A program made the translations under genes and the position numbers. Positions 7,046-53,277 of a DNA stretch of 64,000 nucleotides are shown in pieces; within the stretch, counting starts at the first letter, position 1; each line of letters begins with the position of its first letter. The notes beneath the pieces were generated by a model. That model saw only the letters and a list, made by a program, of their open reading frames with translations. It was not told where the DNA came from and did not search any database. Origin of the DNA: Desulfovibrionaceae bacterium (GTDB lineage Bacteria > Desulfobacterota > Desulfovibrionia > Desulfovibrionales > Desulfovibrionaceae); contig JAVHLG010000006.1 of assembly GCA_031082225.1 (NCBI GenBank), forward strand, positions 16,467 to 80,466, read 5' to 3'.

Positions 7046-7047
7046 GG

Positions 7048-8064: not shown

Positions 8065-8072
8065 CGTGAGTC

Positions 8073-8780: not shown

Positions 8781-8789
8781 GAGATTCTC

Positions 8790-9032: not shown

Positions 9033-9232
9033 TGGAGTTCAAAATGGAACATCGTCCATCCCCTCCGTATCCGGCGGGGAGGCTGGATCAAACTCTTCAG
9101 CCGAAGGACCGGATTCCGCTTGTTTCTATTGGCCGCCTTTCGAGTAGCTGGATGTATGCGCGGGGGCCGCGTTATCATCGTCTTTTCGTTCTTTAGGCCT
9201 TTCGGTTTTGCAATATTTCGTTCTTTCGTTCT

Positions 9233-11461: not shown

Positions 11462-11482
11462 GGTTTTCTCCAATACGCTTTG

Positions 11483-14169: not shown

Positions 14170-14179
14170 ACGTTAACTC

Positions 14180-16825: not shown

Positions 16826-16828
16826 GTC

Positions 16829-19280: not shown

Positions 19281-19876
19281 TCCTCACCTTCGACTTCCTG
19301 AGCATAGGGGGCCGCCGGCTGACGGTAGACCCCGGTCCGGCGGATCGTGGGGAGGACCTCGGACGTGACCCAGCGGCGAAAGGCCCGGGCCTCGTCTTTG
19401 CGGCTGCGGAAGATCAGCGAGTAGAGGCCGGACTCGGAAATGGTGAGCATTTCCTGGCGACCGCCAGAGGTATTCAGGAATTCTGAACCCCTTTCATCCT
19501 CATCCAATCCTCGTGTGGCCTCGGTCACATTCCCCAATTCCAGCACCCGGCAAACGTCCTTGGCCACGAACCAGGGGTTCCCCTGGGCATCGAGCTTGGC
19601 CCGGACCAGCTCGTCCCCGAATGCAAAAGGGATAATGCCTTCCTTCTGGACGGGCGCGGGGATCGGGCTTGGTTCCACCAAATCCGTCATCCGCCCGCTA
19701 CGGACGGAGCAGAGAAAATCCTCAAGCGACCAGGCGCTCGACAGATGCCCACCGGCCTTGAGCAGGCGAAAGGCCTCTTCCAGGTCGATACCGTGGAGTT
19801 GGACGACGATCCGTTTGAAGAGGCGAACATAGCTTTTGTCGGAAACAAGAAGCACGAATTCAGTGGGTTGTTTCAT
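19277..19876 (-). CDS. Bro-N domain protein with the Bro-N domain in the C-terminal half
   Basis: Residues from about 80 to 190 (IIPFAFGDELVRAKLDAQGNPWFVAKDVCRVLELGN...SESGLYSLIFRSRKDEARAFRRWVTSEVLPTIRRTG) match the Bro-N/antirepressor pattern. The N-terminal 80 aa are unassigned. Confidence 0.7.
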   Translation of the reverse strand: MKQPTEFVLLVSDKSYVRLFKRIVVQLHGIDLEEAFRLLKAGGHLSSAWSLEDFLCSVRSGRMTDLVEPSPIPAPVQKEGIIPFAFGDELVRAKLDAQGNPWFVAKDVCRVLELGNVTEATRGLDEDERGSEFLNTSGGRQEMLTISESGLYSLIFRSRKDEARAFRRWVTSEVLPTIRRTGVYRQPAAPYAQEVEGEE

Positions 19877-19885
19877 GAAGGAGCC

Positions 19886-20215
19886 CTCCGGCGTGCGACC
19901 GCCCCGCCGAATGCGGGGCGGTCAGCGTTAAGGGTTGGGAGGCAAGCGCTGGACGGGAAAGATGCGTTTCTGACGGAAGAGGAAGATGCAGGGAATAATT
20001 CACTCTCACGCCGTGCGACCGCCCCGCCAGATGCGGGGCGGTCAGCGTTGGAGGGTAGGGTGGCAAGCGAAAGGCGGGAAAAGGAGTTTCTGAAGGGAGA
20101 CGAGGGCGAAGGAGATATAACCCTCTGACGCCGGGCGACCGCTCCGCCAAATGCGGAGCGGTCAGCGTTGGAGGGTTGAGTGGATGGCGCGAAAGGGGTA
20201 AAAAAGGAGCAATCG
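19886..20215. repeat. Three tandem 120-bp repeats, each with a GC-rich 11-bp-stem hairpin
   Basis: The core GCGACCGCCCCGCC starts at 19895, 20015 and 20135, an exact 120-nt period. The hairpin is GACCGCCCCGC, a 5-nt loop, then GCGGGGCGGTC. The third copy carries paired C>T and G>A changes that keep the stem. Confidence 0.85.
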
Positions 20216-40215: not shown

Positions 40216-42423
40216 ATGACACACAGACCCGTGCTCGGCGTGCTCGTCTCCACCCTGGCCGTCGGCGGGGCCGAGCAACTCCTTTTGGAGCTGTTGCGCC
40301 GCCTGGACCAGGGCCGCTTCGAGCCGCGCCTGTACTGTCTGCGGGAACCCGGCCCCATCGGACAGGAGATCGCGGCCCTGGGCGTCCCGGTCAGGTCCGG
40401 CCTGGGGGGCGGACCTCTGCGTACCATATGCCGCCTGCGCCGGGTCTTTCGCCAGGACCGCCTGGACGCCCTTTTGCTCATCAACCACCGCAACTGCCTG
40501 TTTTACGGCCTGCCCGCCGCCCGGCTGGCCGGGGTGCGGGCCGTCGTCAACTGGCAAAACGAGACCTTCAAGCGACACAGCCACCACGAACTCTACATGC
40601 TCGCCCGCCGGGGCGTGGTCTGGGGCCTGGACGCCCTGACGGCGGCCTCCAGGGGCCATGCCGGATACCTCGTGACGGTGGAGGGCGTGCCGGTGCGCAA
40701 GGTGCTGGCCATCCAAAACGGCGTGGATGCGGCGGCCTTTCGCTCGGAATTGTCGCCACAAGAGGCCCGGCGGCGTCTTGGCCTCCCCGGGGACGCGCCC
40801 ACCGTCGGGATCATCGCCGCCCTGCGCCCGGACAAGGCCCACGAGGTGTTTTTGCAGGCCGCTGCCCAGGTGACGGCCGTGGCCGCTGCCCGAATGACAG
40901 CCGTGGCCGCCGCCGTCCGCTTCCTGGTCGTCGGCGACGGGCCACAGCGCGCCTTCCTGGAGGACTTGGCCGACCGGCTGGGCCTTGGCGGCCAGGTGCG
41001 GTTTCTGGGATTTCGACGCGACGTGCCCGACATCCTGGCCGCCCTGGATCTGGCTGTTTTGTCCTCCGACCCCCAGCAGGAGACCCTGTCCGTGGCCGCC
41101 CTGGAGGCCATGGCCGCCGGGGTGCCCATGGTCGCCACAAGGGTGGGCTTTATGGACGAGATTGTCCGCGACGGGGTGACCGGCCGTCTGGTTCCGCCCC
41201 GCGATCCCGAGGCCCTGGCCGGGGCCATGCTGGACCTTCTTGGCGACGACGCGGCGCGGCGGGAGATGGGACGCCGGGCCAGGGCCCTGGTGGGCCAGGG
41301 CCACACGCTTTCGGGCATGGCCCGGGGCTTCGAGAATCTTTTCACCGAGATTTTGGCCGGACGGCCGCCACGGCAAAACCTGTGCCCCCTGTCCCAGCGG
41401 CGGGTGAGCCTTGGGCTGTACTGGGCCGAGACGGGACAGTGGCGGCTTCTGCACCTGCTGCGTCGGGATCTGGCCGCCGTGGAATATGTCCGTCTGGGCG
41501 ACCGCACCCGACGCGTCCTGGCCCGGCTGGGCCGCCTGTCGGCCTGGGCCTCGGCCGCGTGTCTGGCCGTGAAGCAGGTCGCGCGCGCCTGGCGAAGCGA
41601 CGCGGTCCTGTCCTGGGCCCTGCCCCTTGGGGTCTGCACCGGGCTTCTTTTGCGGTTTGTGCCGCCCCGGTTGCGGCCGGTCCATGTGCTCCGGGACTTC
41701 CACCTGAACCTCTCCCGCACGGACGCGGCCTACCGCCTGCGGCTGGCCGTGTTGCGCCTGGCCCTGCCCGGCATCGACGCCCTGTGGTGCACCTCCGAGG
41801 CGGAGCGCACGCTCTACGCCGACATGCTCGGGCTGCCCGAGACGGCCGTGTCCTTTTATCCGGACGAGCCGCCCAGCCAGTACCTGGAACTGCCGGACGT
41901 TCCGTGCCAGGGGTATGTCTTTGCCTACGGCAACAGCGACCGGGATTTCGAGAGCCTTGTGGCCGTGGCCGATGCAATTGGCCGGGAGGTGGTGATCCTG
42001 AGCCAGTCCTTCGCCTTCCCCGAGCCCCTGCCCGCCAATGTGCGGGCCATGCGCTCCAGGGTGTCCGAGGCGGAGATGGTGGGGCTTTTGCAGGCCGCGG
42101 CCGTGGTGGTGGTGCCCACCAGGGACCGCCGTCTGGCCGCAGGGCAAAACGGGCTGTTGGAGTCCATGGCCCTGGGGCGGCCGGTGGTGGCGGCGGCCAA
42201 TGTGGCGGTTTTGGAATACGCCGGGCACGGGGAGGAGGCGCTTTTCTACGAGCCCGGGGATCGGGAAGGCCTGCTGCAGGCGGTGCGGGCCGTGCTGGAC
42301 GATCCGGACGAAGCCCGGGAGATGGGACGGCGGGCCCGGGAGCGGTGTCGCCGGATGCTGGCCGAGCAACCGTTCCGGTTTCTGGCCCTGTTATCCAAAG
42401 CGATCCGGCTGGCGGGGAAGTGA
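40216..42423 (+). CDS. Two-domain glycosyltransferase: an N-terminal GT4 unit plus a second GT-B-like C-terminal unit
   Basis: The N-terminal half has VLVSTLAVGGAEQLL and ETLSVAALEAMAAGVPMVATRVG. The C-terminal half has GQNGLLESMALGRPVVAAANVAVLEY. Confidence 0.8.
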   Translation: MTHRPVLGVLVSTLAVGGAEQLLLELLRRLDQGRFEPRLYCLREPGPIGQEIAALGVPVRSGLGGGPLRTICRLRRVFRQDRLDALLLINHRNCLFYGLPAARLAGVRAVVNWQNETFKRHSHHELYMLARRGVVWGLDALTAASRGHAGYLVTVEGVPVRKVLAIQNGVDAAAFRSELSPQEARRRLGLPGDAPTVGIIAALRPDKAHEVFLQAAAQVTAVAAARMTAVAAAVRFLVVGDGPQRAFLEDLADRLGLGGQVRFLGFRRDVPDILAALDLAVLSSDPQQETLSVAALEAMAAGVPMVATRVGFMDEIVRDGVTGRLVPPRDPEALAGAMLDLLGDDAARREMGRRARALVGQGHTLSGMARGFENLFTEILAGRPPRQNLCPLSQRRVSLGLYWAETGQWRLLHLLRRDLAAVEYVRLGDRTRRVLARLGRLSAWASAACLAVKQVARAWRSDAVLSWALPLGVCTGLLLRFVPPRLRPVHVLRDFHLNLSRTDAAYRLRLAVLRLALPGIDALWCTSEAERTLYADMLGLPETAVSFYPDEPPSQYLELPDVPCQGYVFAYGNSDRDFESLVAVADAIGREVVILSQSFAFPEPLPANVRAMRSRVSEAEMVGLLQAAAVVVVPTRDRRLAAGQNGLLESMALGRPVVAAANVAVLEYAGHGEEALFYEPGDREGLLQAVRAVLDDPDEAREMGRRARERCRRMLAEQPFRFLALLSKAIRLAGK

Positions 42424-42431
42424 TCTAGCAG
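42091..42431 (+). repeat. Direct repeat, left copy (3' end of the glycosyltransferase gene)
   Basis: This 341-bp stretch is repeated at 44374-44714, an offset of 2283 nt. I see only three A/G differences in the coding part, all at synonymous third positions (GAA/GAG, CAA/CAG, AAA/AAG). Confidence 0.9.
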
Positions 42432-42678
42432 GACAGATCACTGTACAAATAGTAACAGTTTCCTGACTCCTTGCTGGACTCGTTTGCAGTTGTATACTCT
42501 TGCAATAATTCCTAACAAGAATTATTTTTCAGGATGTATCCCATGTCTGCAATGAAATAGAAGTATTTTCAAATGGTTGATATTAGTATTCGTACCAGAC
42601 GGTGTCATTTAGACTAACGTATGTCCGGGTCGGCACATATGGTGCTCAAGACGAATCATAAAAAAACGGCCACTTAAT

Positions 42679-43692
42679 ATGGGTAAAAGACAATTTTTTC
42701 TTTTCGTGTTGGCGGTGTTTTCTTTATTCTGTTCGCAACAGGCTCTATCAGCGCCAATCGCCTACAACGCTGATTATTCCGTTGTGAAGCCGTTGCTCTC
42801 CACTCCCCAGGCTGCCGCAGAATACATGACAGCCTACTTTCAATATGAGTCACACTGGGGTTACACGCCGATGTCTCCTTCCGCTTTCAATTCGAGCAAG
42901 CGAGGAGATTGCAAGGATTATGCGACATTTTTTGGCGACATTCTTCTTTATCATTCGTACGCAGTGAAAAAGTATGCTTTCAGATATGATACTGTAAATG
43001 GCTGGAGTCATATCGTTATCATTTTTACAGACACAGATGGAAAGCAATATGTAGCGAGTAACAAAGGCAGCACACAGCGAATATATGGACCTGTCAACAG
43101 TCTCGAAGAAGCGGGAAATCTGCTCCTGGCCGACGGCGTACTGCCGGATGGATCGGTCGCGGACCAATGGCTCAAGTACCCCGCCGATTTCACAGGCCAA
43201 TTGCAGGACTCCAAAGGATTTGTCTATAACGCCGACTACCAAACTGCCACGGCCCAATTTCAGTATTTTCAACACCCGGCCATTTACATGACGGCATTTT
43301 TTTCCCTTGGCCCCCATCCTGGGGAATATGCCTTTCCACCGGAAGAACTCAACCTGCTGAAGTCCGGAGAAGCGAAAGATTTTGCAGTGTTCAGCGCCAA
43401 AAATACAAACTCGGATATCTATTCTTTCAGATGTAACGCCGCGACAAACGCCGGACATGTCATTTCCGTGACTACATACGAGGATAAATACTATTTTCAA
43501 AGCAACCAGTATTTCTTTGGGCCGGTTGACTCCTTTGACGATATGGTGCCCCTCCTCAAGGAGAACAGGCATATCCCTGTAGATTGCGTCGCGGACAGGT
43601 GGCAATCCTATCCATCCACGTATACGGGGCCGTTCCCTGTTGCCAATTCAGTACGATTTAATCCCGTCTCATTGCTCCTCCTGGACAACTAG
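42679..43692 (+). CDS. Secreted protein with two tandem transglutaminase-like cysteine-peptidase (BTLCP/LapG-like) domains
   Basis: It has a signal peptide (FLFVLAVFSLFCSQQALSA). Domain 1 reads RGDCKDYATFF...GWSHIVIIF...ASN. Domain 2 aligns as SGEAKDFAVFS...NAGHVISVT...QSN. The surrounding DNA is AT-rich. Confidence 0.55.
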   Translation: MGKRQFFLFVLAVFSLFCSQQALSAPIAYNADYSVVKPLLSTPQAAAEYMTAYFQYESHWGYTPMSPSAFNSSKRGDCKDYATFFGDILLYHSYAVKKYAFRYDTVNGWSHIVIIFTDTDGKQYVASNKGSTQRIYGPVNSLEEAGNLLLADGVLPDGSVADQWLKYPADFTGQLQDSKGFVYNADYQTATAQFQYFQHPAIYMTAFFSLGPHPGEYAFPPEELNLLKSGEAKDFAVFSAKNTNSDIYSFRCNAATNAGHVISVTTYEDKYYFQSNQYFFGPVDSFDDMVPLLKENRHIPVDCVADRWQSYPSTYTGPFPVANSVRFNPVSLLLLDN

Positions 43693-44189
43693 TGTAATGC
43701 TCCACAAACAAGCATGCACTTCATTTGGCAGAAAGCAGTGTTTTTAAGCCATTGCTTGGTGGCCACGACCGCAATATAATGCCTATCTATTTTTGGAACG
43801 CGACACTAGTGTCGTATCCTTGAAATACGCATGTGCGGATTTCTAAAATAAAAGTCTGAAACTATTGTTTATTTCAAAAACTGGCATTTTTCAAGTGGCG
43901 TGACACTAGCGCGTGAGCCCCCCTATACCTGAGAGGCCGTAGCAACCGGAAAGAGGATGCGTAGGTTCTCCACTCATTGCCAAGCAAAAAGACGAACCAT
44001 GCGCTTTTTTGGTTGCATTTTCCTGTTGTTCATATTGGTTCCTGGTGCCCGGTTGGATTTCCCACTAGCCTCGTCTTCGGACAAAATTCGGGATAAACGG
44101 CCCCTAAAGGAGAAGCCCCGATGAAAGTGACGGCGTGTCCGGATCGGACATGCCGGGGACGCTGGCGTTTTCGGGCCGCATCCGCCGCC

Positions 44190-44373
44190 GTGTCTACTCC
44201 CTGGCCCGGCTCCAGGGCAGGACCATGCCCAGGCACCAGCGTATCTCCGTATCCCGTGAAAGGGACAGGCTCCCCAGAAAAAAACCGCCCCGAAGGACAG
44301 GGCCGCCGCCGGAAAGGCCCACACCACGGGAAGCCCCAGACCGGCCAGTCCCGCCTTGGCGGCCAAGGGCAGT
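44190..44373 (-). pseudogene. Remnant of a flippase (murJ-like) 3' end
   Basis: It aligns with 46650-46835, the real flippase 3' end, at roughly four-fifths identity by eye, with indels and a frameshift. The peptide ...LSRDTEIRWCLGMVLPWSRAR compares with ...LSRDTEIRWCLGMVLPWGRAR. Confidence 0.75.
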
Positions 44374-44706
44374 CAGGCCGCGGCCGTGGTGGTGGTGCCC
44401 ACCAGGGACCGCCGTCTGGCCGCAGGGCAAAACGGGCTGTTGGAGTCCATGGCCCTGGGGCGGCCGGTGGTGGCGGCGGCCAATGTGGCGGTTTTGGAAT
44501 ACGCCGGGCACGGGGAGGAGGCGCTTTTCTACGAGCCCGGGGATCGGGAAGGCCTGCTGCAGGCGGTGCGGGCCGTGCTGGACGATCCGGACGAGGCCCG
44601 GGAGATGGGACGGCGGGCCCGGGAGCGGTGTCGCCGGATGCTGGCCGAGCAGCCGTTCCGGTTTCTGGCCCTGTTATCCAAGGCGATCCGGCTGGCGGGG
44701 AAGTGA
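44374..44706 (+). pseudogene. Duplicated 3' fragment of the glycosyltransferase gene (right copy of the direct repeat)
   Basis: It encodes the last ~110 aa of the 40216-42423 product. It has no own N-terminal domain, and its upstream end is joined directly to the flippase remnant. Confidence 0.8.
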
Positions 44707-44720
44707 TCGAGCAGTTCAGT

Positions 44721-45209
44721 CTATCTGTTCCATGGAAACAAAGCTGGATTTATTAATTTTTTCTCAATATTCTTGTGATTTCGTATCTGATGAAACCACA
44801 AAGCGACAACATCTCCTTTTAAAATATGGTCATGAATCAGATTGTTGATCCTGCAGTTCGTTTGCTGTCCACCGATATAGCAATTTCTTGGCGATATATT
44901 ACCGTATCCAGTGTTGTATCTTTTAGATAGGTTGACGCATTCACCGATATAGCGATTGTCACCGTTCAAAGTTATAATATATACTCCGCATGTATTTGTT
45001 ATTCCGCTGAGTTTAAATTTGCAAAATGGACCATATCCATATTCATGAAATGCTAGATTTTTCTTGTTGCCATACCTTGGCTGAGGGAAATTATAAAAAT
45101 TTGTAACATTGATATTGCATACATATGAAAATATATATGAAGCCCCGTTTGTATCAAATAGAGTGATCGCTTGGAGATTACGTCCGCACATTTTGGAGTC
45201 TCGCCTCAT
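44721..45209 (-). CDS. GIY-YIG nuclease family protein
   Basis: 162 aa. The sequence GVYIITLNGDNRYIGECVNLSKRYN...N...NNLI follows the GIY...YIG...R...N pattern. The DNA here is strongly AT-rich relative to the flanks. Confidence 0.6.
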   Translation of the reverse strand: MRRDSKMCGRNLQAITLFDTNGASYIFSYVCNINVTNFYNFPQPRYGNKKNLAFHEYGYGPFCKFKLSGITNTCGVYIITLNGDNRYIGECVNLSKRYNTGYGNISPRNCYIGGQQTNCRINNLIHDHILKGDVVALWFHQIRNHKNIEKKLINPALFPWNR

Positions 45210-45262
45210 GCATTGCGTGTCGTGAGAACCCTGGACAGTTTGCTACACTAGCTTTCGCAAGA

Positions 45263-46381
45263 TTATCCGAGCCGCGACAGCTTCTCCCCAACCAGGGAGG
45301 CCGCATACCGGGTCAGACGCCCGAAGTTGCGCACCGGGCGGCGCAGCACGCTGAATTTGTAGTTGATGCTCATCTGGCAGGAGCAGCGGTTGCAGGCCGG
45401 GGGGAATTGTCCGTCCCGGATGGCCTCGCGCACCGGCCGCATCTTCTCCACCAACGCGGACAGGGGCTCCTCCTGCACGTTCCCGGCCGGGGGCAACAGG
45501 GCGCAGGGCAAAACCGACCCGTCGGCGTCCACAAAGAGCTTGGCGGCGATCTCCAGGCAGGAGAAATCCTTCAGGCAGCGCCGCATCCACAGGGACGATT
45601 CGTCCAGACAGTGTTCGAAATACTGGCGCATCCACGGCGCGACATGGGGGATGTTGGTGCGTACCCCGAACTTGCGGGCCAGCCGCGCCAGTTCCCGGAA
45701 ATGCTCCGGCAGATGCGCCACCTGTTCCGGGGTCGGCAGCATGTCGCTTTTGTCGTCGGCCTCCACGTCGTGGTAATTGTTCCAGACATGCAGCGGCTGG
45801 AAATTGATGTAGTCCACGGCGTGTTCTTTGGCGAAGGCGATGACCCCGGGAAGCTCCGCATAGTTCTGGCGGCAGACGGTGGTGTTGATGTTCACCTTCA
45901 GGCCGATGCTTTTCAGGATGCGGATGCCGCCGGTGGTCCGTTTCAAAAACCCCTTGCCGCCACGCAGGAAGTCGTGGGTTTCCGGGCGGCCTGATTCCAG
46001 GGAAATGTCGATCCACTGGGCGTTTTTGAGCAGATCGAGCTGGGCCGGGAGGAAGTTTTCCACCAACAGGCCGTTGGAGACCACGGAAAACCGCAGGCCC
46101 AGGGACAGGATCTTCTCGATGAGCTCCCACACGTCGCGCCGGAAAAACGGCTCCCCCCCGGAGAGGTAGATGTGCGGAACGCCCGCCTGCCGGGCCTCCT
46201 CGAACAGGGAAAAAAGCCGGGCCTGATCGAGTTCCCGCGCCGCGTCAAGCTTGTAGGCCTCGCAGTAGCGGCACCGGGAATTGCACCGGCTGGTGATGTT
46301 CACGAACAAGCAGCCGTAGCCCAGTTCGCCCCGGTTGTACCGCCTGACCTCATCGATCATGCCCAACAGTCTGCGTAGCAT
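45263..46381 (-). CDS. Radical SAM / SPASM-domain protein
   Basis: I trimmed the start to the ATG at 46381 (MLRRLLGMIDEV). The CxxxCxxC cluster is in NITSRCNSRCRYCEAY. The SPASM-like C-terminus is DGSVLPCALLPPAGNV...PPACNRCSCQ. Confidence 0.8.
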   Translation of the reverse strand: MLRRLLGMIDEVRRYNRGELGYGCLFVNITSRCNSRCRYCEAYKLDAARELDQARLFSLFEEARQAGVPHIYLSGGEPFFRRDVWELIEKILSLGLRFSVVSNGLLVENFLPAQLDLLKNAQWIDISLESGRPETHDFLRGGKGFLKRTTGGIRILKSIGLKVNINTTVCRQNYAELPGVIAFAKEHAVDYINFQPLHVWNNYHDVEADDKSDMLPTPEQVAHLPEHFRELARLARKFGVRTNIPHVAPWMRQYFEHCLDESSLWMRRCLKDFSCLEIAAKLFVDADGSVLPCALLPPAGNVQEEPLSALVEKMRPVREAIRDGQFPPACNRCSCQMSINYKFSVLRRPVRNFGRLTRYAASLVGEKLSRLG

Positions 46382-46649
46382 TGAGCGCGCCTTGCGGGTG
46401 TGCCGCTTCGTTGTGGTGAACCGTCCGGACCCGGACGCGACAGGAGGATGCGGCTTTTCCGGGCCCGGGACAGGCCGGACGCCCTGGCCGCCTGGGCCGG
46501 AAATCCCGCGTCCATCCCATGAACAGGGATGCGCCCACGGCGTTTTCCTCACTCTGCGGCAGCCCTTGGTTTGCGGGCGTGAAACTAGCACGGGCCGCAG
46601 GGCGAGACAATGCCCGCCGGATTAAGACGCGCCGCACCGTCCTGCGGCG

Positions 46650-48197
46650 TTACGGCCTGGCCCGACCCCAGGGCAGGACCATACCCAGGCACCAGCGTAT
46701 CTCCGTGTCCCGGGAAAGGACCAGGCTCCCGAGAAAGCCCCCCCCGAAGACCAGGGCCGCGGCCGGAAAGGCCCACAGCCCGGCAAGGCCCAGCCAGGCC
46801 AATCCGAGCTTGGCGGCCAAGGCCAGCCCCACCGCCGCAAGGGTGGCCCCGGCCACCTGGAGAAAGGGCCAGGCGCGCGGCGGTTCGTTAAAGACGCCCA
46901 GGGCGCGCTGGATGATGGCCAGGAAGATCAGGCAGGTCAGGGCCATGGTCACGGTGGTGGACATGGCCACGGCCTCGGGGCCGCCGATGGTCCGGATGAA
47001 CCAGAGGTTGAAGATGGCGTTGAGGAGCATGGTGACCACGCCCACGACCAGAAGCGTCACGTTTTTGCGCAGCGCGGTGAAAAACACCCCGTTGAGCACG
47101 GCGTATGCGGCGAAAAGCATCCCCGTCGCGTACCAGGACAGGGTCAGGGCCGTGGAGGCCACGGCCTGGTCCCCGAAGGCCCCGCGCCGCAGCAGCAAGG
47201 CGACGATCTCCGTGGAAAAAAGCAGGACAAAGGCCGTCATCCCGGCCGAGACCATGCACGAAAAGAGCACCCCGCGCCAGAACACCCGGCGCATGCCCAG
47301 GACGTCGTGCCCCTCGGCCTGTTCGCTCACGTAGGGGAAAATAGCCCGGGCCGCCGCCATCACGAACAGTTGCAGGGGCAGGTCGTTGATGCGGTAGGCG
47401 TAGCGCAGGGCGGACACCGACCCGGACGGCAGTTCCGTGCTCATGACCTGATCGACCAGGATGTTGGAATTGACCACCAGGCCGCCGACCACCAGGGGCC
47501 AGGCCAGGAGAACGAATTCGCGCAAGGCGGGCCTAACCGGCGGGCGCGGCGGCCCCAGGGGAAAACGCGACCCGCGCAGGGCCACGGCCATGACCACCGC
47601 CTTGGCCGCCGTGCCCGCCAGAAATCCCACGGCCAGGGCGTGCACGCCCATGTCCCCGAACGCCGCCAGGGTTCCGATGATGGCCAGGTTGATGCAAAGC
47701 TGGGCCCCGTACAGGGCCAGGAAAGATTTCTCCGCCTGCAGCACCCCGGCCATGACCGCCGCGCCGCCCTCCAGAAAGATGAGCCAGACCAAAAGACGAA
47801 TCAGGGAATCGCCCAGGGCCTTTTCCCCCTCGGGAAACCCGTAGCCGATCACGGCCATGATGGGTGCGGACCACACGGCGCAGACCACGGTCAGGGCCAG
47901 GAAAAAAAGGAGGGCGAGAAGGCCCAGGTTGGCCAGGTTGCGGCGCAGTTCCTCCGGCCCCCGCCCCCGCCAGGTCATGTACAGGGGAACCAGGGCCGAG
48001 ATCACGGCCTGCCCCAGGAGCATGGCCAGAATGGCCGGGAAGGCGTAGGCCACGTTGAACACGTCCAGTTCCCGGGAGATGCCGAAGCGGTAGGCGAACA
48101 GCATCTCCTTGCCCAACGCCAGGATCTTGTCCACAAGCGTCAGGCCCACGATGACGAGCGTGGAGCGGCGGATGCCGTCCATGACCTCCTGGCTCAT
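46650..48197 (-). CDS. MOP-superfamily flippase (MurJ/MviN-like)
   Basis: I trimmed the start to the ATG at 48197 (MSQEVMDGIRRSTLVIV). The sequence GKEMLFAYRFGISRELDVFNVAYAFPAIL is MurJ-like. The protein has about 14 TM helices. Confidence 0.8.
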   Translation of the reverse strand: MSQEVMDGIRRSTLVIVGLTLVDKILALGKEMLFAYRFGISRELDVFNVAYAFPAILAMLLGQAVISALVPLYMTWRGRGPEELRRNLANLGLLALLFFLALTVVCAVWSAPIMAVIGYGFPEGEKALGDSLIRLLVWLIFLEGGAAVMAGVLQAEKSFLALYGAQLCINLAIIGTLAAFGDMGVHALAVGFLAGTAAKAVVMAVALRGSRFPLGPPRPPVRPALREFVLLAWPLVVGGLVVNSNILVDQVMSTELPSGSVSALRYAYRINDLPLQLFVMAAARAIFPYVSEQAEGHDVLGMRRVFWRGVLFSCMVSAGMTAFVLLFSTEIVALLLRRGAFGDQAVASTALTLSWYATGMLFAAYAVLNGVFFTALRKNVTLLVVGVVTMLLNAIFNLWFIRTIGGPEAVAMSTTVTMALTCLIFLAIIQRALGVFNEPPRAWPFLQVAGATLAAVGLALAAKLGLAWLGLAGLWAFPAAALVFGGGFLGSLVLSRDTEIRWCLGMVLPWGRARP

Positions 48198-48309: not shown

Positions 48310-49671
48310 TCAGACGGCCCCGTCCAGGATGTCGGGATGCTCCAGCAGGCGGCAGGCCAGTCCGGCGAAGGTGAAGGTGGCCACGTTGATGAACGGGCAC
48401 AGGGAGGCCTCGACAAAGACGTTGTTCACCAGGGCCGCCGTGATGCCAAGGGTGAGCAGGATGACCATGTTGGCCCAGGCGTTTCGGTCCACCCGGGGAT
48501 CCCTGGTCAGGGCGTACAGCCTGCGAAAGATGAGGACGAGCAGGGCCAGATAGACGGACATCCCGACGAGGCCCAGTTCCACGGCCATGCCGATGAGGTG
48601 GTTGTGCTGGTTGTCCTGGAAGGTTTCGGGCGAATCGGACACGGAGAAATGGGCCAGCCCCACCCCGAAGACCGGATGCTCACGGATCAGGCGCAACGAT
48701 TTGGCGATAAGCTGAAAACGGATCTCCACCTCCTCCACCTGGGCGATGCCGCCGAGCTCCCGGCTGGAGGAGAACAGCCGCTCGGAGTTGGCCGCGATGC
48801 CGAACAGGCACACCGCCAGGACCAGGGGGGCCAGCTTCCACCTGGGCCATCCGGTGCGCACAAAAAACAGCACCGTCCCAAGCGCCAGCAGGAAGACGAG
48901 ATAGGCCGAGCGGGTGGAGGTGAAAAACACCCCCGGGAAAAAAAGCGGCACAAGGCCCAGGATCAGAAAACGGCCTCCCGGCCCGACCAGGGGCAACAGC
49001 ATCATGCCGGCCGTAAAGCAGATGGTCATGGCCAGCCCGTTGAAGGCCGCATTGAGCAGCGGTCCCCGGGAACGGTCAAGGTGCAGGGGAAATCTTTCGT
49101 CCGTGATGTAGGCGGGATGGACCAGGGAGTTGAGGTCGTAGCGTTCCAGAATGGAAATGAGGCACAGATAGACGCCCAGGGCAAAAAGCACAGCCAACAG
49201 TATCTTGAGGCTTCGGATATCCCCGAAAAAATACTTCGCAAAAAAAAATGCCATAAACGGGACGAAGTATCCGGAAAAAAACACATACCACGGTTTCGGG
49301 GCATAGGCGTACATGGCCGCAAAGCCGTTCAAGGACATGGAGACGACGCAGATCACAAGGAAGATGAACATCACAAGCTCAAGGGTATGATCCCCTGCAA
49401 GCTGAACCCTCTTGGTGAAGAGCTGGTACGCGGCGGAAACGCTGAGCAGAACAAAGAGGAACCGCTCCACGGAGAGGTCGAAGAGTCCAAAAATCTTGTA
49501 CGAGGCGAAATAGGTGTTCCACACCACCACCGAGACGATCCATACGCTGAATAGGATCGGGAAAACCGTATAGTGCGCCGAGGATTTCCGCCTCGCCCAG
49601 GACAGGCGCAGGATGAAAAGCCCTGCCACGACCGCCATGGCCAGGACGGCCAGGGACAGGATCAGTTCCAT
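48310..49671 (-). CDS. O-antigen ligase / Wzy-like polymerase family membrane protein
   Basis: 453 aa and polytopic. A TSTRSAYLVFLL loop region and the NQHNHLIGMAVELGLVG motif are typical of the O-antigen ligase family. Confidence 0.7.
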   Translation of the reverse strand: MELILSLAVLAMAVVAGLFILRLSWARRKSSAHYTVFPILFSVWIVSVVVWNTYFASYKIFGLFDLSVERFLFVLLSVSAAYQLFTKRVQLAGDHTLELVMFIFLVICVVSMSLNGFAAMYAYAPKPWYVFFSGYFVPFMAFFFAKYFFGDIRSLKILLAVLFALGVYLCLISILERYDLNSLVHPAYITDERFPLHLDRSRGPLLNAAFNGLAMTICFTAGMMLLPLVGPGGRFLILGLVPLFFPGVFFTSTRSAYLVFLLALGTVLFFVRTGWPRWKLAPLVLAVCLFGIAANSERLFSSSRELGGIAQVEEVEIRFQLIAKSLRLIREHPVFGVGLAHFSVSDSPETFQDNQHNHLIGMAVELGLVGMSVYLALLVLIFRRLYALTRDPRVDRNAWANMVILLTLGITAALVNNVFVEASLCPFINVATFTFAGLACRLLEHPDILDGAV

Positions 49672-50076: not shown

Positions 50077-51495
50077 CTAAGGCCCCGTTTGGGAAATGGA
50101 CCCGAGCAGCGGCACGTCGCACCAGCGTTCGATATCCTCCGGGGTCTTGAGGGTGTGGTCGAAGTAGTCCAGGGTGAAGGCCGCCGCCAGTCCCGCCGCG
50201 ATGCCGAGGAAAAGGCCCAGAACGATCAGGCCGATCCGGTTGGGCTTGTACGGGGTCATGGGTTCCACGGCCGGATCGACCAGGGTCACGAGCAGGTCCG
50301 GCCGGGACAGGGCGTTGGCCTGCCTGGCCTGTTCCAGCTTGGCGCTGGCCTCGGCGTAGGCTGCTTTCGCCAGTTCGTAATCGTTGTTGAGAAAGGCGTA
50401 GGTGGAGCGCTGTTGGGCCGTTGCGCGCAGGGACTCCTCCAACTCGGCGATGGCCGCATCCAGTTCCACGATCATGCTGGTGATGCTTTGGGCCTGAATC
50501 CGCTTGCCTTCGATATAACGCCCGGTCTCGTTGCGCAAAAGCCCGACGTTGGCCTCCAGTTCCTGCTTGAGACGCCGCAGGGGTTCGTACTGGGGCGTGA
50601 ACTGGGTCTCCATCTCCTGGATCTGCATGCGCAACTGGGCCACCTTGTACCGGTAGGCGGTGATGGCCTTGCCGCTGCCCTCCATGTCCGGCAGGATGGC
50701 CGGTCCCTGGTCGTCGGCCATGCTGGACTCCAGGTCGGTGATGGTCCTTTCCAGTCCCACATACTCCTCCCGCAGGGCCTGGCGTTTGGACTGGACCGCG
50801 TTGAGCCGGGTCTTGGCCCCGGCTTCGGCGTTGGCCTTGTTGCCTTCGAGATTGAGGATGTCCACAAGCGCCAGGGCGTTTTCGCCCTCGTAGGTCTTGA
50901 GCAGGTCCGCCTTCCCGCGCATGATCGCGTAGAGGCTTTCCACCTGCTCCTTGAAGAAGTCGTAGGAATATTCCGTGCGCTGCTTGGCGATCTCCTCGAA
51001 GACCTCCAGATAGGCCTGGGAAACCTCCTTGACCATGTTGTAGGCCATGCGCGGGTCGCTGTCGTCGTAGCTCAGGATGAAGTCGCTGGTGGCCTCGAAG
51101 GTCTCGCCCTTGGGGGGGCCCACCTCGATGTCCTTGCCCAGCTTGGCGACGATTTTCTGATACTGGGCCTCGGTCTTGCCGGGATACAGGACGGTCGCCG
51201 CGCGCATAAGCACCCGGTTGGAGAGGATGATCTCCTTTTGTCCCGAGAGCACGCGCACGTATTGGTTCTTGGAGTCGGTGTACACGTCCTTTTGCAAGGG
51301 ATCGATCTGCTGGCTCATGGTCACGGAGAACTTGGCCCGGCACAGATACTGGGCAGGCAGAAGCACGGCCAGGGCCAGGGAGAGCAGAAAGATTCCCCCT
51401 GCGATCTTGAGGATCAGCCGTTTGTGGTAAAAAACGATGAAGACGACTTCACGCAGGATGTTGCCTGATTCGCGGCTGGCGTACTTGTCGGTCAT
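50077..51495 (-). CDS. Polysaccharide co-polymerase (Wzz/GumC-type chain-length determinant) without a kinase domain
   Basis: It has an N-terminal TM segment (ILKIAGGIFLLSLALAVLLP), a long coiled-coil periplasmic region and a C-terminal TM segment (IGLIVLGLFLGIAAGLAAAF). Confidence 0.8.
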   Translation of the reverse strand: MTDKYASRESGNILREVVFIVFYHKRLILKIAGGIFLLSLALAVLLPAQYLCRAKFSVTMSQQIDPLQKDVYTDSKNQYVRVLSGQKEIILSNRVLMRAATVLYPGKTEAQYQKIVAKLGKDIEVGPPKGETFEATSDFILSYDDSDPRMAYNMVKEVSQAYLEVFEEIAKQRTEYSYDFFKEQVESLYAIMRGKADLLKTYEGENALALVDILNLEGNKANAEAGAKTRLNAVQSKRQALREEYVGLERTITDLESSMADDQGPAILPDMEGSGKAITAYRYKVAQLRMQIQEMETQFTPQYEPLRRLKQELEANVGLLRNETGRYIEGKRIQAQSITSMIVELDAAIAELEESLRATAQQRSTYAFLNNDYELAKAAYAEASAKLEQARQANALSRPDLLVTLVDPAVEPMTPYKPNRIGLIVLGLFLGIAAGLAAAFTLDYFDHTLKTPEDIERWCDVPLLGSISQTGP

Positions 51496-51512: not shown

Positions 51513-52715
51513 CTAGTTGGTATTGACCCTGAGCGACGGGGTGATGTCGTAGTTGACATTGAACGAACTGGTGAATGGCACCACGGCGTACAGGCCCTTG
51601 GTGAAGATCTTGGCGATCAGATCGTTGACGTTGTCCAGCGTCCCCTTGGGCACATAGACGATGTCTGCGGGCTGCACGTACAGGTCGTCATACATTTTCC
51701 CGGTGTCCAGCAGGCGTTGCAGGTCCACCCGGTAGGCCATGGGCTTGAGCAGGCCGTTGTTGCGAAAGACCAGGACGTCGCGCAGATTGGCGCTGTCCTT
51801 GAAGCCCCCGGCCTGGCCCAGGGCCTGGGCCAGATTGAGGCGTCCCTGGAGTTCGTAGACCCCGGGGGTGTTCACCTCGCCGTAGACGTAGAGCTTGTTG
51901 TTGTGGATCTCCAAAAGGATCAGGGTGACCTGGAGGTCGTCCACGTATTTGGCGTAGCGCTCGTTGATGGCCTTCTCCAACTGGGCCACGGTCAGGCCCG
52001 AGGCGTCGACGTTGCCGATGATGGGGAAGCCCACCCGGCCGTCGGGGGCAATGGGCGCGATCTTGCTCTGGCCCCGGGGGGCGGTGGTGATGGCCTTTTT
52101 GAGCTCGTCGATGCGCACGTTGAACTCCTCCAGGCTCACGGTCAGGGAGGGCTTCTTGATGAAGGCCGCATAGCGCCTGTCCAGATCCGTCGTGACCTCG
52201 CTCATGCTCATGCCGACCACCTTGACCTCGCCGACCAGGGGCAGGGAAATCTTGCCGTCGGCCCGGATCAGGGTGCTGACGTTGAACTGGGGATGGTAGG
52301 GAAAGGCGATGCTGATGCGGTCCTGGATGTCCAGGCGGTAGTCCTTCACGGTGATGTCGTGGCGGATGTGGTAGACCACCTCCAGCACGTCCCCGGGGCC
52401 CATGCGGTAGGTGGGGATATCCGGCACGGCCTCGCCGTCCAGCACCTTGAACGCGGGGTTGTCCCCCACGCTGGCCGGGGTCAGTTCCAGTTGCCTTTGC
52501 TGGTCCAAAACCTCCTGCACCCCGGCCTGGTCCGTGACGGTGACCACCGGATCGGGCGAGTCCGTGTGCGACCTGGCGCACCCCCAGGCAAAGAGGAGAC
52601 TGGCGGCGAGGGCCAGAACCAACGTCCCCGTGGCCATACGGCCGTCAGGGCGTGCGGCGAGGCCTTTGTGTTGCATCATTGAGGTGGCCATACGAATGTC
52701 TCCTGGGGTCGGCAC
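51513..52715 (-). CDS. Polysaccharide export outer-membrane protein (Wza-like)
   Basis: It has a lipobox-like LLFAWGCA. The polysaccharide export motif is YRMGPGDVLEV, and SLBB-like repeats are present (GEVKVVGMS, GNVDASGLTVAQLE, GEVNTPGVY). The start is uncertain, with several in-frame ATGs. Confidence 0.8.
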   Translation of the reverse strand: MPTPGDIRMATSMMQHKGLAARPDGRMATGTLVLALAASLLFAWGCARSHTDSPDPVVTVTDQAGVQEVLDQQRQLELTPASVGDNPAFKVLDGEAVPDIPTYRMGPGDVLEVVYHIRHDITVKDYRLDIQDRISIAFPYHPQFNVSTLIRADGKISLPLVGEVKVVGMSMSEVTTDLDRRYAAFIKKPSLTVSLEEFNVRIDELKKAITTAPRGQSKIAPIAPDGRVGFPIIGNVDASGLTVAQLEKAINERYAKYVDDLQVTLILLEIHNNKLYVYGEVNTPGVYELQGRLNLAQALGQAGGFKDSANLRDVLVFRNNGLLKPMAYRVDLQRLLDTGKMYDDLYVQPADIVYVPKGTLDNVNDLIAKIFTKGLYAVVPFTSSFNVNYDITPSLRVNTN

Positions 52716-53052
52716 TCACGCGAACATGGCCGAAATGTGTTTTGCTTGGCCCGGGCAGGCCGGTGCGGGGAGGGCCGCAGAACCTGCCCCTGGCGGCGAC
52801 GACGCCGCATCCCGATCCTGCCCCCTGCGCCTTCCGACGCTTCCGTATCACTCTGCTGACAGCATCCTGTTTCACTCGGTTAAACAGTGAAAATCCCCGT
52901 TGCCGTGCCCGGACCGCCATTGCTTTGGCGAAGGATGCAGTTTTGCGCTTCAACCCTCTGTTCTCGTTGCAGTCTTCGCCCGCGCCCCGTTTCGAATCGC
53001 GGACGCTGCAGCACGGGGCCGCGAGCCTGGCCGGGAACTCCATACCGCTATT

Positions 53053-53121: not shown

Positions 53122-53277
53122 CAGGGGCCTCGCCAGGGGACAGGGCGCGAAGCAGGTCCGGTCAGTTCGCAAGCGGGAGCAAAACGTCTTTTGGGGTCTC
53201 AGGGGCGTCGCCAGGGGACGGCGAGGGAAACAGCTCCGGCCGGTTCGCGGACGGGAGCGAAACGTCTTTGGGGGATC
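53122..53277. repeat. Two tandem 78-bp repeats immediately 3' of the GT4 gene
   Basis: The copies span 53122-53199 and 53200-53277. Both begin CAGGGGC(C/G)TCGCCAGGGGAC and end GGGAGC(A/G)AAACGTCTTTxGGGG. The second copy overlaps the GT4 stop codon. Confidence 0.75.

What the first reader, a model, noticed from the sequence alone, without database searches (positions are those of the whole stretch)
42091..46835. Two alternative cargo cassettes held in tandem between convergent glycosyltransferase and flippase genes: the footprint of a Campbell-type insertion
**Structure seen.**
1. GT 3' end (341 bp).
2. Cassette A (42432-44189): AT-rich, carrying the secreted LapG-like gene.
3. Flippase 3' remnant (44190-44373).
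4. A second copy of the GT 3' end (44374-44714), joined directly to the remnant.
5. Cassette B (44715-46649): GIY-YIG and radical SAM genes.
6. The intact flippase.

**Divergence of the two repeat pairs.**
- The two GT copies differ only at three synonymous third positions.
- The flippase remnant is only about 80% identical to the resident gene and is frameshifted.

**Interpretation.** This is the product expected if a 2283-bp segment (GT-3' end, cassette A, flippase-3' end) from a related strain circularised and integrated by a single crossover in the GT homology. The inter-gene spot therefore behaves as a swap site for accessory cassettes. Both alleles are frozen side by side here, and the arrangement should be unstable.
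Basis: seen in the sequence. Interest (0 to 1): 0.65.

Follow-up and report, generated by a model that had tools for sequence, protein, structure and literature searches.

The report
Two polysaccharide-locus alleles joined in tandem
In the exopolysaccharide gene cluster of a sulfate-reducer, two gene arrangements that related bacteria carry one at a time sit side by side, joined by a duplicated gene end and a broken flippase fragment, which looks like a half-finished allele swap and is a tidy but not revolutionary example of how such loci diversify.

Summary
A 341-nt direct repeat (42091-42431 and 44374-44714) has 4 mismatches, and it is the only long near-perfect repeat in the 64-kb window. 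A 173-nt 3' fragment of a MurJ-family flippase (44200-44372) is 84% identical to the resident gene and has a 2-nt indel.

- A-type loci (L010-L013) carry GT, cassette A and flippase, with no radical SAM gene.
- B-type loci carry GT, radical SAM and flippase (L001, L015-17, L025, L027, and Solidesulfovibrio L036).
- L018/L019 carry the B type with the AT-rich GIY-YIG gene at the same nucleotide as in the window.
- Only the window carries A and B+GIY in tandem.

The flippase fragment is closer to the A-type flippase (90.5%) than to the resident one (84%). The fragment-to-GT join lies at a GC palindrome with only 6 nt of exact homology, so it is an illegitimate join and not a k-mer overlap.

Two corrections are needed. 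The radical SAM gene is the ancestral resident, not cargo. GIY-YIG is a separate insertion.

The product fits a Campbell-type cointegrate, but other routes give the same structure. No reads or same-species genomes were available, so reality and instability remain untested. This is a new member of a known kind, of moderate interest.

The parts
40216..42423 (+). Intact two-domain GT4-type glycosyltransferase (735 aa). Its last 333 nt belong to repeat copy 1.
   Evidence: Pfam Glycos_transf_1/Glyco_trans_1_4 at 1e-46 in two stretches. The best NCBIfam hit is the PEP-CTERM/XrtA-system GT, below its cutoff. It is full length compared with the 727-733 aa relatives.
42091..42431 (+). Direct repeat copy 1: the GT 3' end, the stop codon and an 8-nt 'tail' (TCTAGCAG). 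It carries 3 derived synonymous G>A changes.
   Evidence: At 42312, 42369 and 42399, 12-13 of 13 relatives have G, as copy 2 does.
42432..44193 (+). Cassette A (39-54% GC): upstream region, ORF and a patchwork spacer.
   Evidence: Composition. Collinear with A-type loci L010-L013 at 93% over 42404-43695.
42679..43692 (+). Cassette A gene: a secreted protein of 337 aa with two tandem transglutaminase-like (LapG/CPR-C4-like) cysteine-protease domains. The second domain has Ala in place of the catalytic Cys.
   Evidence: Homologs P0001 (95%) to P0017. C78 and H111 are invariant, and A232 is invariant at the Cys-equivalent position. The model has pLDDT 92, and Foldseek finds CPR-C4 at 9e-6 and LapG at 3e-3.
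43696..43804 (.). Block S1: 109 nt absent from A-type relatives and flanked by an 8-nt direct repeat (ACTAGTGT). Its right end creates a 14-nt perfect palindrome, CGACACTAGTGTCG.
   Evidence: Alignment with L010 and L012.
43891..44161 (.). Block S3: 271 nt absent from L010, flanked by a 10-nt direct repeat (CTGGCRTTTT). Its start (43901-43958) copies the end of a cassette-A ORF plus the 3' flank of the L014-type allele.
   Evidence: Local alignment score 61 against a shuffle maximum of 30.
44200..44373 (-). 3' remnant (last ~57 codons) of an A-type MurJ-family flippase. It is frameshifted by 2 extra A in a homopolymer run and so is a pseudogene fragment.
   Evidence: 84% identity to the resident gene. 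90.5% to the L010 flippase, with 47/47 identical at 44162-44208.
44363..44392 (.). Novel junction between the flippase remnant and an internal point of GT (44373|44374). It lies at the perfect palindrome GGCCGCGGCC. Exact shared homology is 6 nt (GGCCGC), within 14/19 imperfect matches.
   Evidence: Three-way alignment of the junction with the A-type flippase and the parental GT.
44374..44714 (+). Direct repeat copy 2: a promoterless GT 3' fragment plus the tail (TCGAGCAG). It carries the ancestral state at the three coding sites that differ.
44715..45268 (-). An AT-rich (~35% GC) 554-nt insertion carrying a 162-aa GIY-YIG nuclease gene (44721-45209). It replaces the 25-30-nt GT/radical-SAM spacer and the last codon and stop of the radical SAM gene.
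   Evidence: Absent from L001, L015-17, L025 and L027. Present at the same nucleotide in L018/L019. Motif. Fold hits are T4 EndoII, UvrC-N and Hpy188I.
45263..46381 (-). Radical SAM/SPASM gene (372 aa), the ancestral resident of this position.
   Evidence: Pfam Radical_SAM 2.6e-25 and SPASM 5e-6. Found in the same position in 7 lineages, including Solidesulfovibrio aerotolerans.
46650..48197 (-). Intact resident MurJ-family (MOP) flippase, 515 aa.
   Evidence: Pfam MurJ 3.6e-52. TIGR01695 scores 213 bits, below its 235-bit cutoff. Same length as the L010 and L017 orthologs.

Best explanation
The window holds a natural cointegrate (a local merodiploid) of two alleles of one hotspot in a Desulfolutivibrio-like exopolysaccharide locus.

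**The parts.**
- The resident allele was GT, an 8-nt tail, the GIY-YIG gene, the radical SAM gene and the flippase.
- A 2283-nt segment of an A-type allele was added to it: the GT 3' end, the tail, the cassette-A protease gene and the last ~57 codons of the A-type flippase.

**How it formed (inferred).** The product needs two joins.
1. One homologous exchange inside the GT 3' end.
2. One illegitimate join between the A-type flippase 3' end and an internal GT site, at the palindrome GGCCGCGGCC.

The simplest route is circularisation of the A-type segment through that illegitimate join, followed by a single (Campbell-type) crossover in the GT homology.

**Consequences (read from the sequence).** GT, cassette A, GIY-YIG, radical SAM and the resident flippase all stay intact. 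Only the flippase remnant and GT copy 2 are dead fragments. The event therefore added cassette A without losing anything.

**Expected resolution (inferred).**
- Recombination between the 341-nt GT repeats would restore the B+GIY allele.
- Recombination between the two flippase 3' ends (173 nt, 84% identical) would give an A-type allele.

On this reading the structure is the halfway stage of a two-step allelic exchange.

**Shown versus inferred.** Shown: the structure, the separate existence of both alleles, and the origin of the parts. Inferred: the circular intermediate, the order of events and the instability.
For: **Structure**
- The repeat and remnant are real, and the repeat is unique in the window.
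- The 2283-nt unit is collinear with A-type loci from inside the GT gene to inside the flippase gene.

**Alleles exist separately**
- A-type loci L010-L013 have GT, cassette A and a full-length flippase, with no radical SAM gene.
- B+GIY loci L018/L019 have GT, the same tail, GIY-YIG and radical SAM, at 84.6% identity over 1016 nt.
- B0 loci have neither insert.

**Origin of the added segment**
- The remnant is 90.5% identical to the A-type flippase against 84% to the resident one. Positions 44162-44208 match L010 at 47/47.
- The cassette A ORF has half the synonymous-type divergence from L010 that GT has (8.5% against 16.7%). This implies more recent sharing of the cassette.

**Junction**
- Only 6 nt of exact microhomology lie at the junction, at a GC palindrome. 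This is typical of illegitimate joins, where 3-10 bp microhomology is usual (PMC3240628). It is too short for a k-mer assembly join.

**Precedent**
- In E. coli conjugation experiments, duplications of 109-950 bp of the homologous segment flanking the insert came from single crossovers of circular molecules. True HFIR gave deletions (PMC3240628).

**Independent parallel**
- In L026 a different 2.4-kb AT-rich cassette (a ROK kinase gene and a membrane-protein ORF) sits at the same spot. It is flanked by a duplicated GT end plus spacer of about 40 nt. The GT-attached copy is of the cassette type (GCG) and the displaced copy is of the B0 type (GCC).
Against: - No independent assembly carries the junction. 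The 29-mer was absent from genome contigs and metagenome contigs. No sequence closer than 95% to the window was found, and no reads were available.
- The source contig is only 90.7 kb, so it is a draft or a MAG.
- Both GT copies are of the window's own type (99% to each other, about 91% to L010). A simple donor from the L010 lineage is therefore excluded. The model needs an unobserved same-species A-type strain or later gene conversion.
- All 4 differences lie in the last 120 of 341 nt, and 221 nt are identical. A Campbell event between 1%-diverged parents would be expected to spread differences along the whole repeat.
- Circularisation needs an end-joining or illegitimate step for which there is no direct evidence here.
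Confidence: 0.6

Rival explanations
1. Duplication first. An A-type ancestor underwent a spontaneous microhomology-mediated tandem duplication of the segment GT 3' end, cassette A and flippase 3' end. Ordinary homologous allelic replacement from a B+GIY donor then swapped the second copy's cassette A and flippase for GIY-YIG, radical SAM and flippase B.
For: - The junction has the microhomology/palindrome look of spontaneous tandem-duplication joins.
- It explains why both GT copies, and the tail shared with A-type alleles, are of one type.
- Tandem duplications are common, and transformation stimulates them (PMC3784515).
Against: - It needs two rare events in the same 2 kb.
- The closest relative, L015/L016 (95%), and all outgroups of the B part are B-type. 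This suggests the window's background is B, not A.
- No genome with a duplicated cassette A was found.
Confidence: 0.12
2. A one-step event using a linear A-type donor, with no circle. Either replication switched templates (MMBIR/FoSTeS-like), or the donor fragment bridged two sister chromatids. Synthesis or pairing left the resident at the GT end or tail, copied cassette A and the flippase 3' end, and re-entered the resident 341 nt upstream at GGCCGCGGCC.
For: - Both GT copies would be resident-derived, which matches their 99% identity.
- 27 nt are identical between the L010 GT end plus tail and that of the window, which could serve as the exit point.
- The re-entry point is a palindrome.
- The 3 derived G>A changes on one strand, close to the foreign DNA, fit error-prone synthesis or damage to single-stranded DNA.
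- Smaller insertions flanked by short duplications recur nearby: S1 with 8 nt, S3 with 10 nt and L026 with about 40 nt.
- Bridging of sister chromatids by donor DNA is documented (PMC3784515).
Against: - The documented bridging uses homology at both ends, not a 6-nt join.
- Four substitutions are too few to establish a mutational signature.
- The product is identical to the Campbell product, so the sequence cannot separate the two.
Confidence: 0.15
3. Assembly artefact. Two co-existing strains, one A-type and one B+GIY, were stitched into one contig.
For: - The source is a 90.7-kb contig, so probably a draft or a MAG.
- A-type and B-type contigs do co-occur in single sequencing runs and break at the same GT position (L013 and L015 in SRR29667956).
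- The first 221 nt of the repeat are identical, which is hard for short reads to resolve.
- The frameshift is a homopolymer-length difference.
Against: - The remnant-to-GT junction exists in neither parental arrangement, and the two sequences share only 6 exact nt there. A graph assembler could not create it.
- The remnant stops after 173 nt instead of continuing into a flippase gene.
- The copies differ at 4 sites.
- The cassette A spacer has its own private insertions.
Confidence: 0.07
4. A dedicated cassette-exchange system. The GT stop region acts as an attachment or homing site, and the GIY-YIG nuclease (or an unlinked recombinase) cuts there and drives capture of the cassette.
For: - Three different AT-rich inserts (cassette A, GIY-YIG and the ROK cassette) sit at the GT stop/spacer.
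- Cassette A and GIY-YIG begin at exactly the same nucleotide, after the shared 8-nt tail.
- GIY-YIG shows a presence/absence pattern at one site that disagrees with flank relatedness. It is absent from L015 (95% to the window) and present in L018 (84%).
Against: - No integrase or transposase lies in or next to any cassette.
- The duplications start at different GT positions (341 nt and about 40 nt), so there is no fixed core site.
- The GIY-YIG protein has no recognisable homing-type DNA-binding domain and no PADLOC or Pfam match.
- Its homologs sit in unrelated contexts.
- GIY-YIG divergence from L018 is about the same as that of its flanks.
Confidence: 0.05

Closest known systems
Single-crossover (Campbell-type) cointegrates or insertion-duplications, as made by suicide-vector allelic exchange and seen in E. 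coli conjugation (PMC3240628)
   Same: The insert is flanked by a direct duplication of the homology arm. The insert plus one repeat is a circular permutation of a contiguous donor segment. Two homology arms (GT 3' end and flippase 3' end) allow resolution to either allele.
   Different: There is no vector, replicon or selectable marker. The circle would have to close through an illegitimate 6-nt join. The second arm is only 84% identical and is frameshifted. The intermediate was seen in a natural genome, not made in the laboratory.
Homology-facilitated illegitimate recombination (HFIR) in natural transformation
   Same: There is one homologous anchor (GT) and one illegitimate join with 3-10 bp of GC-rich microhomology. 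About 2 kb of foreign DNA is captured next to the anchor.
   Different: HFIR normally deletes recipient DNA of similar size. Here 341 nt of the recipient is duplicated and nothing is lost.
Variable central regions of O-antigen, capsule and EPS gene clusters
   Same: Conserved flanking genes, low-GC accessory genes, alternative alleles in close relatives, a divergent flippase and polymerase linked to the allele, and gene remnants as recombination scars.
   Different: Such loci usually carry one allele at a time. Here two alleles are stacked in tandem with a defined hybrid junction and no IS element.
Transformation-induced merodiploids or tandem duplications (S. pneumoniae, PMC3784515)
   Same: An unstable tandem duplication created during DNA exchange, with a novel junction, that allows two versions of a region to coexist.
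   Different: Those duplications are 100-900 kb and lie between IS repeats with homology at both ends. This one is 2.3 kb, has a microhomology junction and holds two different alleles.

Membership tests
Campbell-type cointegrate (insertion-duplication) | A direct duplication of the homologous segment flanks the inserted DNA. | tested here: met
   The repeat is 341 nt with 4 mismatches and flanks 1942 nt.
Campbell-type cointegrate (insertion-duplication) | The inserted unit is a circular permutation of a contiguous segment that exists in a donor-type genome. | tested here: met
   The order GT 3' end, cassette A, flippase 3' end is contiguous in L010 and L011.
Campbell-type cointegrate (insertion-duplication) | The recipient allele exists without the insert. 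| tested here: met
   L018/L019 carry GT, tail, GIY-YIG and radical SAM without cassette A. These contigs are short and come from a lineage 84% identical to the window.
Campbell-type cointegrate (insertion-duplication) | A circular intermediate exists, and the cointegrate loses the insert by loop-out. | not testable with these tools
   No reads, cultures or same-species genomes were available.
Homology-facilitated illegitimate recombination | There is a short (3-10 bp) microhomology at the illegitimate junction. | tested here: met
   GGCCGC lies inside the palindrome GGCCGCGGCC.
Homology-facilitated illegitimate recombination | Recipient DNA is deleted at the illegitimate end. | tested here: not met
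   The recipient sequence is duplicated and nothing is missing compared with L018 or the B0 loci.
Site-specific integrative element (att sites plus integrase) | A recombinase gene lies within or beside the insert. | tested here: not met
   The insert holds only the protease gene and a flippase fragment. Pfam finds no integrase or transposase in 38-51 kb.
Site-specific integrative element (att sites plus integrase) | A fixed core attachment sequence is shared by independent insertions. | tested here: inconclusive
   Cassette A and GIY-YIG share the same left boundary after an 8-nt tail. However, the duplications begin 333 nt (window) and 13 nt (L026) upstream of the GT stop.
Free-standing GIY-YIG homing endonuclease | The protein has the GIY-YIG catalytic motif and fold. 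| tested here: met
   G75-V-Y77, Y87, R97, E149 and N161 are conserved across 34 homologs. The top 14 PDB folds are GIY-YIG nucleases, the best at E = 1.4e-3.
Free-standing GIY-YIG homing endonuclease | The nuclease cleaves the empty allele and copies itself in. | not testable with these tools
   Only a presence/absence pattern at one site was seen. Homologs occur in unrelated, defence-like neighbourhoods.
Variable region of a polysaccharide gene cluster | Conserved flanking biosynthesis and export genes enclose alternative low-GC gene content in relatives. | tested here: met
   Four allele types (B0, B+GIY, A and the ROK cassette) lie between a conserved GT and the MurJ/Wzy/Wzz genes.
Assembly chimera of two strains | The join occurs at a sequence shared by the two sources, of k-mer length or longer. 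| tested here: not met
   The longest exact match at the junction is 6 nt. Read-level support was not testable.

The most novel reading that the evidence does not exclude
The interval between the GT stop and the flippase stop may be a recurrent additive capture site. Foreign AT-rich cassettes would be taken up by the same kind of event each time: a homologous anchor in the upstream gene plus a back-join that duplicates that gene's 3' end. The duplications are 341 nt here, about 40 nt around the ROK cassette in L026, and 8-10 nt around blocks S1 and S3. The trigger might be the GC-palindromic terminator region or the resident GIY-YIG nuclease. The resulting cointegrates would then resolve to either allele. 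This would be a natural, vector-free two-step allelic-exchange route for diversifying polysaccharide loci without passing through a loss-of-function state.
Probability: 0.2. Interest if true: 0.6.

Novelty: new member of a known kind. Interest (0 to 1): 0.4.

Why it matters
Polysaccharide loci are the textbook case of allele switching by recombination, but the intermediates are almost never seen. If this structure is real, it is a captured intermediate. It shows that a cassette can be added to such a locus without losing the resident genes. It also shows that the scars left behind (a duplicated gene end and a flippase stub) record which allele came in and where the joins were. A second, independent cassette at the same spot in L026 also has a duplicated GT end, which hints that the route recurs. 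Practically, the structure predicts a locus that can switch by loop-out, which is testable by PCR. It also warns annotators that the 116-codon 'GT' ORF and the flippase stub are fragments.

Tried and rejected
**Searches that found nothing**
- Exact-protein look-ups of cassette A, GIY-YIG, radical SAM (P0138) and the 116-aa junction ORF found no other contig.
- The junction 29-mer was absent from genome contigs and metagenome contigs. I could therefore not obtain independent confirmation of the tandem.
- Rfam on 42300-46800 gave one sub-threshold hit only (DUF3577 RNA, E = 0.15).
- PADLOC gave nothing for cassette A or GIY-YIG. Its viperin-like hits to the radical SAM protein reflect the generic radical SAM core.
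- PDB sequence searches of cassette A and GIY-YIG gave only chance hits.
- NCBIfam gave nothing for cassette A or GIY-YIG.

**Ideas considered and dropped**
- That the 8-nt tail after copy 2 proves an A-type origin of the resident allele. L018/L019 show that the tail belongs to the B+GIY allele too.
- That GIY-YIG is flanked by a duplicated GT end as cassette A is. Only a chance-level 'CTGG' match was seen at its right boundary.
- That the L010 lineage was the direct donor. GT copy 1 shares the window-specific states and is only about 91% identical to L010.
- The promoter/terminator scan gave only consensus-level hits, and I did not use it.

Full report
**1. Observation**

- The repeat finder and an ungapped comparison at offset 2283 show that 42091-42431 equals 44374-44714 (341 nt).
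- There are four mismatches. Positions 42312, 42369 and 42399 are A in copy 1 and G in copy 2, and all are synonymous third positions.
- The fourth mismatch, 42426 (T/G), lies just after the TGA stop at 42421-42423.
- The repeat extends 8 nt beyond the stop codon. I call this the 'tail' (TGATC[T/G]AGCAG).
- Over the whole 64-kb window this is the only long near-perfect repeat.
- A gapped alignment places the flippase remnant at 44200-44372 against 46656-46826. It has 146/173 identities (84%) and a 2-nt indel in an A-run that shifts the frame.

Gene identities:

| Coordinates | Strand | Product | Evidence |
|---|---|---|---|
| 40216-42423 | + | two-domain GT4-type glycosyltransferase | Pfam, 1e-46 |
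| 46650-48197 | - | MurJ-family flippase | Pfam, 3.6e-52 |
| 48310-49671 | - | Wzy_C polymerase/ligase-like protein | Pfam |
| 50077-51495 | - | Wzz/GNVR protein | Pfam, below its curated cut-offs |
| 45263-46381 | - | radical SAM/SPASM enzyme | Pfam |

Cassette A and the GIY-YIG segment are 35-54% GC in a roughly 70% GC background.

**2. The cargo genes**

Cassette A protein (337 aa):
- It has a signal-peptide-like N-terminus and two tandem domains of about 150 aa.
- An alignment-based AlphaFold model (pLDDT 92) matches transglutaminase-like cysteine proteases. The best hit is CPR-C4 (E = 9e-6), followed by LapG (E = 3e-3).
- The first domain keeps the invariant Cys78 and His111. The second has an invariant Ala at the Cys position.
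- 'LapG-like' is therefore fair at the level of fold.

The 162-aa ORF:
- It has no Pfam, NCBIfam or PADLOC match.
- It belongs to a family of more than 600 small proteins with invariant GVY...Y(I/V)GEC...R...E...WN.
- Its model (pLDDT 80) finds only GIY-YIG nucleases at the top: T4 EndoII, UvrC-N and Hpy188I. The E-values are marginal.
- Homologs sit in unrelated neighbourhoods, some of them defence-like.

**3. What relatives carry at this junction**

This was the decisive step. Each allele type named here is defined by what lies between the GT stop and the flippase stop.

| Allele type | Arrangement | Loci |
|---|---|---|
| B0 | GT, 25-30-nt spacer, radical SAM, flippase | L001 (Desulfolutivibrio MAG), L015/L016 (the closest relative, about 95% nt), L017, L025, L027 |
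| B0, longer spacer (about 90 nt) | same gene order | L036 (the isolate Solidesulfovibrio aerotolerans DSM 16695) |
| B+GIY | GT, tail, GIY-YIG, radical SAM | L018, L019 |
| A | GT, tail, cassette A, full-length flippase (515 aa), no radical SAM | L010, L011, and the short L012, L013 |
| C | GT, 2.4-kb AT-rich insert (a ROK kinase gene and a membrane-protein ORF), radical SAM | L026 |

- Because B0 reaches a different genus, the radical SAM gene is the ancestral occupant and not a cassette.
- L018 and L019 come from two JGI metagenomes. They are 84.6% identical to the window over 1016 nt and have the same boundaries to the nucleotide.
- The cassette A protein of the A-type loci is 95% identical to the window's.
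- The insert in L026 is flanked by an imperfect direct repeat of about 40 nt, made of the last 13 nt of GT, its stop codon and the spacer.
- No relative has the tandem.

The spot is therefore a genuine hotspot with at least four allele types. The window combines A and B+GIY.

**4. Origin of the parts**

- The 2283-nt unit is collinear with an A-type locus from inside the GT gene to inside the flippase gene.
- The remnant is 90.5% identical to the L010 flippase against 84% to the resident gene. The 47 nt at 44162-44208 are identical to L010.
- The cassette A ORF differs from L010 at 8.5% of codons that encode the same amino acid. The figure is 16.7% for GT and 13.5% for the flippase. The cassette has therefore been shared more recently than its flanks.
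- In contrast, both GT copies are of the window's own type. They are 99% identical to each other, about 91% to L010 and 95-96% to L015.
- At the three coding sites where the copies differ, 12-13 of 13 relatives have the copy-2 state. Copy 1, the end of the functional gene, carries three derived G>A changes.
- All four differences lie in the last 120 nt, next to cassette A.

**5. The junction**

- The remnant joins GT at 44373|44374.
- On the GT side the join lies at the perfect palindrome GGCCGCGGCC.
- The A-type flippase reads GGCCGCCGCC there. This gives 6 nt of exact homology and 14/19 imperfect matches.
- This is the look of an illegitimate, microhomology-mediated join.
- It also argues against a strain-mixing assembly artefact. 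The junction exists in neither parental arrangement, and 6 nt cannot create an edge in an assembly graph.
- Even so, the source is only a 90.7-kb contig. The junction 29-mer occurs nowhere else in the two collections I could scan. No reads were available. The physical reality of the structure therefore rests on inference.

**6. Mechanism**

The product requires one homologous exchange in the GT 3' end and one illegitimate join.
- In an E. coli conjugation study, true HFIR gave an insertion plus a deletion. Duplications of 109-950 bp of the homology arm came from single crossovers of circular molecules (PMC3240628).
- A useful extension follows from the fact that the unit carries two arms, the GT 3' end and the flippase 3' end. 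The structure is formally the cointegrate stage of a two-step allelic exchange.
  - Recombination between the GT repeats would restore B+GIY.
  - Recombination between the flippase ends would yield an A-type locus. The product would be intact only if the crossover falls in the 76 nt on the stop-codon side of the frameshift.
- Other routes give the same product and cannot be excluded from sequence.
  - Tandem duplication in an A-type ancestor followed by allelic replacement (0.12).
  - Template switching or interchromatid bridging by a linear donor (0.15). Transformation-induced merodiploids provide a precedent (PMC3784515).
  - Assembly artefact (0.07).
  - A dedicated site-specific or homing system (0.05).
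- The template-switching route best explains three features: the two GT copies are nearly identical, the few differences cluster next to the foreign DNA, and smaller insertions flanked by short duplications occur nearby.

**7. Comparison with known systems, and novelty**

- This is a polysaccharide-locus variable region behaving as such regions are known to behave.
- The tandem is a Campbell-type, merodiploid-like recombination product.
- It fails the HFIR criterion of recipient deletion.
- It fails the integrative-element criterion of a linked recombinase.
- I class it as a new member of a known kind. It is a clean natural example with both parental alleles identified, and not a new mechanism.
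- The most novel reading still open is a recurrent 'additive capture' route at this spot. The parallel in L026 and the stacked 3' flanks inside the cassette A spacer hint at it. I rate this at about 0.2.

**8. Verdict**

  - The radical SAM gene is resident.
  - GIY-YIG is a separate insertion.
  - The donor must have been a same-species A-type strain, or the repeats were homogenised later.
- Interest is 0.4.

Noticed in passing
L026:7308-9784: A third allele at the same spot. A 2.4-kb AT-rich insert (31-50% GC) carries a ROK-family kinase gene (Pfam 5e-52) and a 329-aa membrane-protein ORF. It is flanked by an imperfect direct repeat of about 40 nt made of the GT end, its stop codon and the spacer (7308-7348 and 9749-9784). 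The copy attached to GT has GCG, as cassette-bearing alleles do. The displaced copy has GCC, as B0 alleles do.
   Followed up: partly
window 43693-44199: The spacer between cassette A and the flippase remnant is a patchwork. The L010-type spacer is interrupted by S1 (43696-43804, flanked by the 8-nt repeat ACTAGTGT) and S3 (43891-44161, flanked by the 10-nt repeat CTGGCRTTTT). The motif GAC(A)ACTAG, which is the end of the cassette-A ORF, occurs three times, each followed by a different downstream flank. The third flank matches the L014-type allele (score 61 against a shuffle maximum of 30). A 14-nt perfect palindrome, CGACACTAGTGTCG, lies at about 43800-43813.
   Followed up: partly
window 876-17206: A cluster of type IV secretion and conjugation genes lies about 25 kb upstream of the locus, at lower GC (GC3 0.45-0.8) than the rest of the window. 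It includes VirB4/TrbE-like, TrbL/VirB6, CagX/VirB9, two VirB11/T2SSE-type ATPases, a secretin and ParA. A BRO-N domain gene lies at 19277-19876. This is probably an integrated conjugative element.
   Followed up: partly
window 42312, 42369, 42399, 42426: All differences between the two GT copies lie in the last 120 of 341 nt, next to cassette A. The three coding ones are derived G>A changes on the same strand in the functional copy, while the dead copy keeps the ancestral state. With only 4 sites this is suggestive of a recombination-associated tract or mutation cluster, no more.
   Followed up: partly
L013 and L015 (both Logan SRR29667956); also L010, L012, L016 from the same run series: A-type and B0-type contigs from two lineages, about 92% identical in the GT 3' end, co-occur in the same sequencing runs. 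Both break at the same GT position (window 42156/44439), which is a stretch identical between the strains. Both alleles therefore coexist in one community, so donors and recipients meet.
   Followed up: partly
window 44721-45209 and homologs P0018-P0137: The GIY-YIG protein belongs to a large family (more than 600 hits) with no Pfam, NCBIfam or PADLOC match for the window's member. Members are about 150 aa and share a strongly conserved Cys-containing block, GYGNISPRNC..GGQ.TNCR. Some are fused to PF24706 or winged-helix domains. Some lie in defence-island-like contexts (NERD, Abi_2, DUF3800, AAA_15/21 in L020) or beside a DUF4160/DUF2442 pair (L021).
   Followed up: partly
window 53122-53274 and 19956-20195: Two tandem repeats unrelated to the finding. 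The first has two 75-78-nt units (81% identical) in the intergenic region between the polysaccharide-export gene and the next GT. The second has two 120-nt units (73% identical) near 20 kb.
   Followed up: no
window 49000-49650 (5' part of the Wzy_C gene) and 52500-53000: Identity to all relatives drops to 59-75% here, against about 85-92% in neighbouring genes, and GC falls to about 50-56% at 49.0-49.5 kb. These are further allele-specific or recombinant segments of the locus.
   Followed up: no
L002:9987-10853: In the more distant uncultured Desulfovibrio contig, GT is followed by a PEP-CTERM-type secreted protein and then an RND efflux gene, not by the radical SAM and flippase block. The EPS cluster ends differently there. 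The window GT's best NCBIfam hit is a PEP-CTERM/XrtA-system GT, below its cutoff.
   Followed up: no
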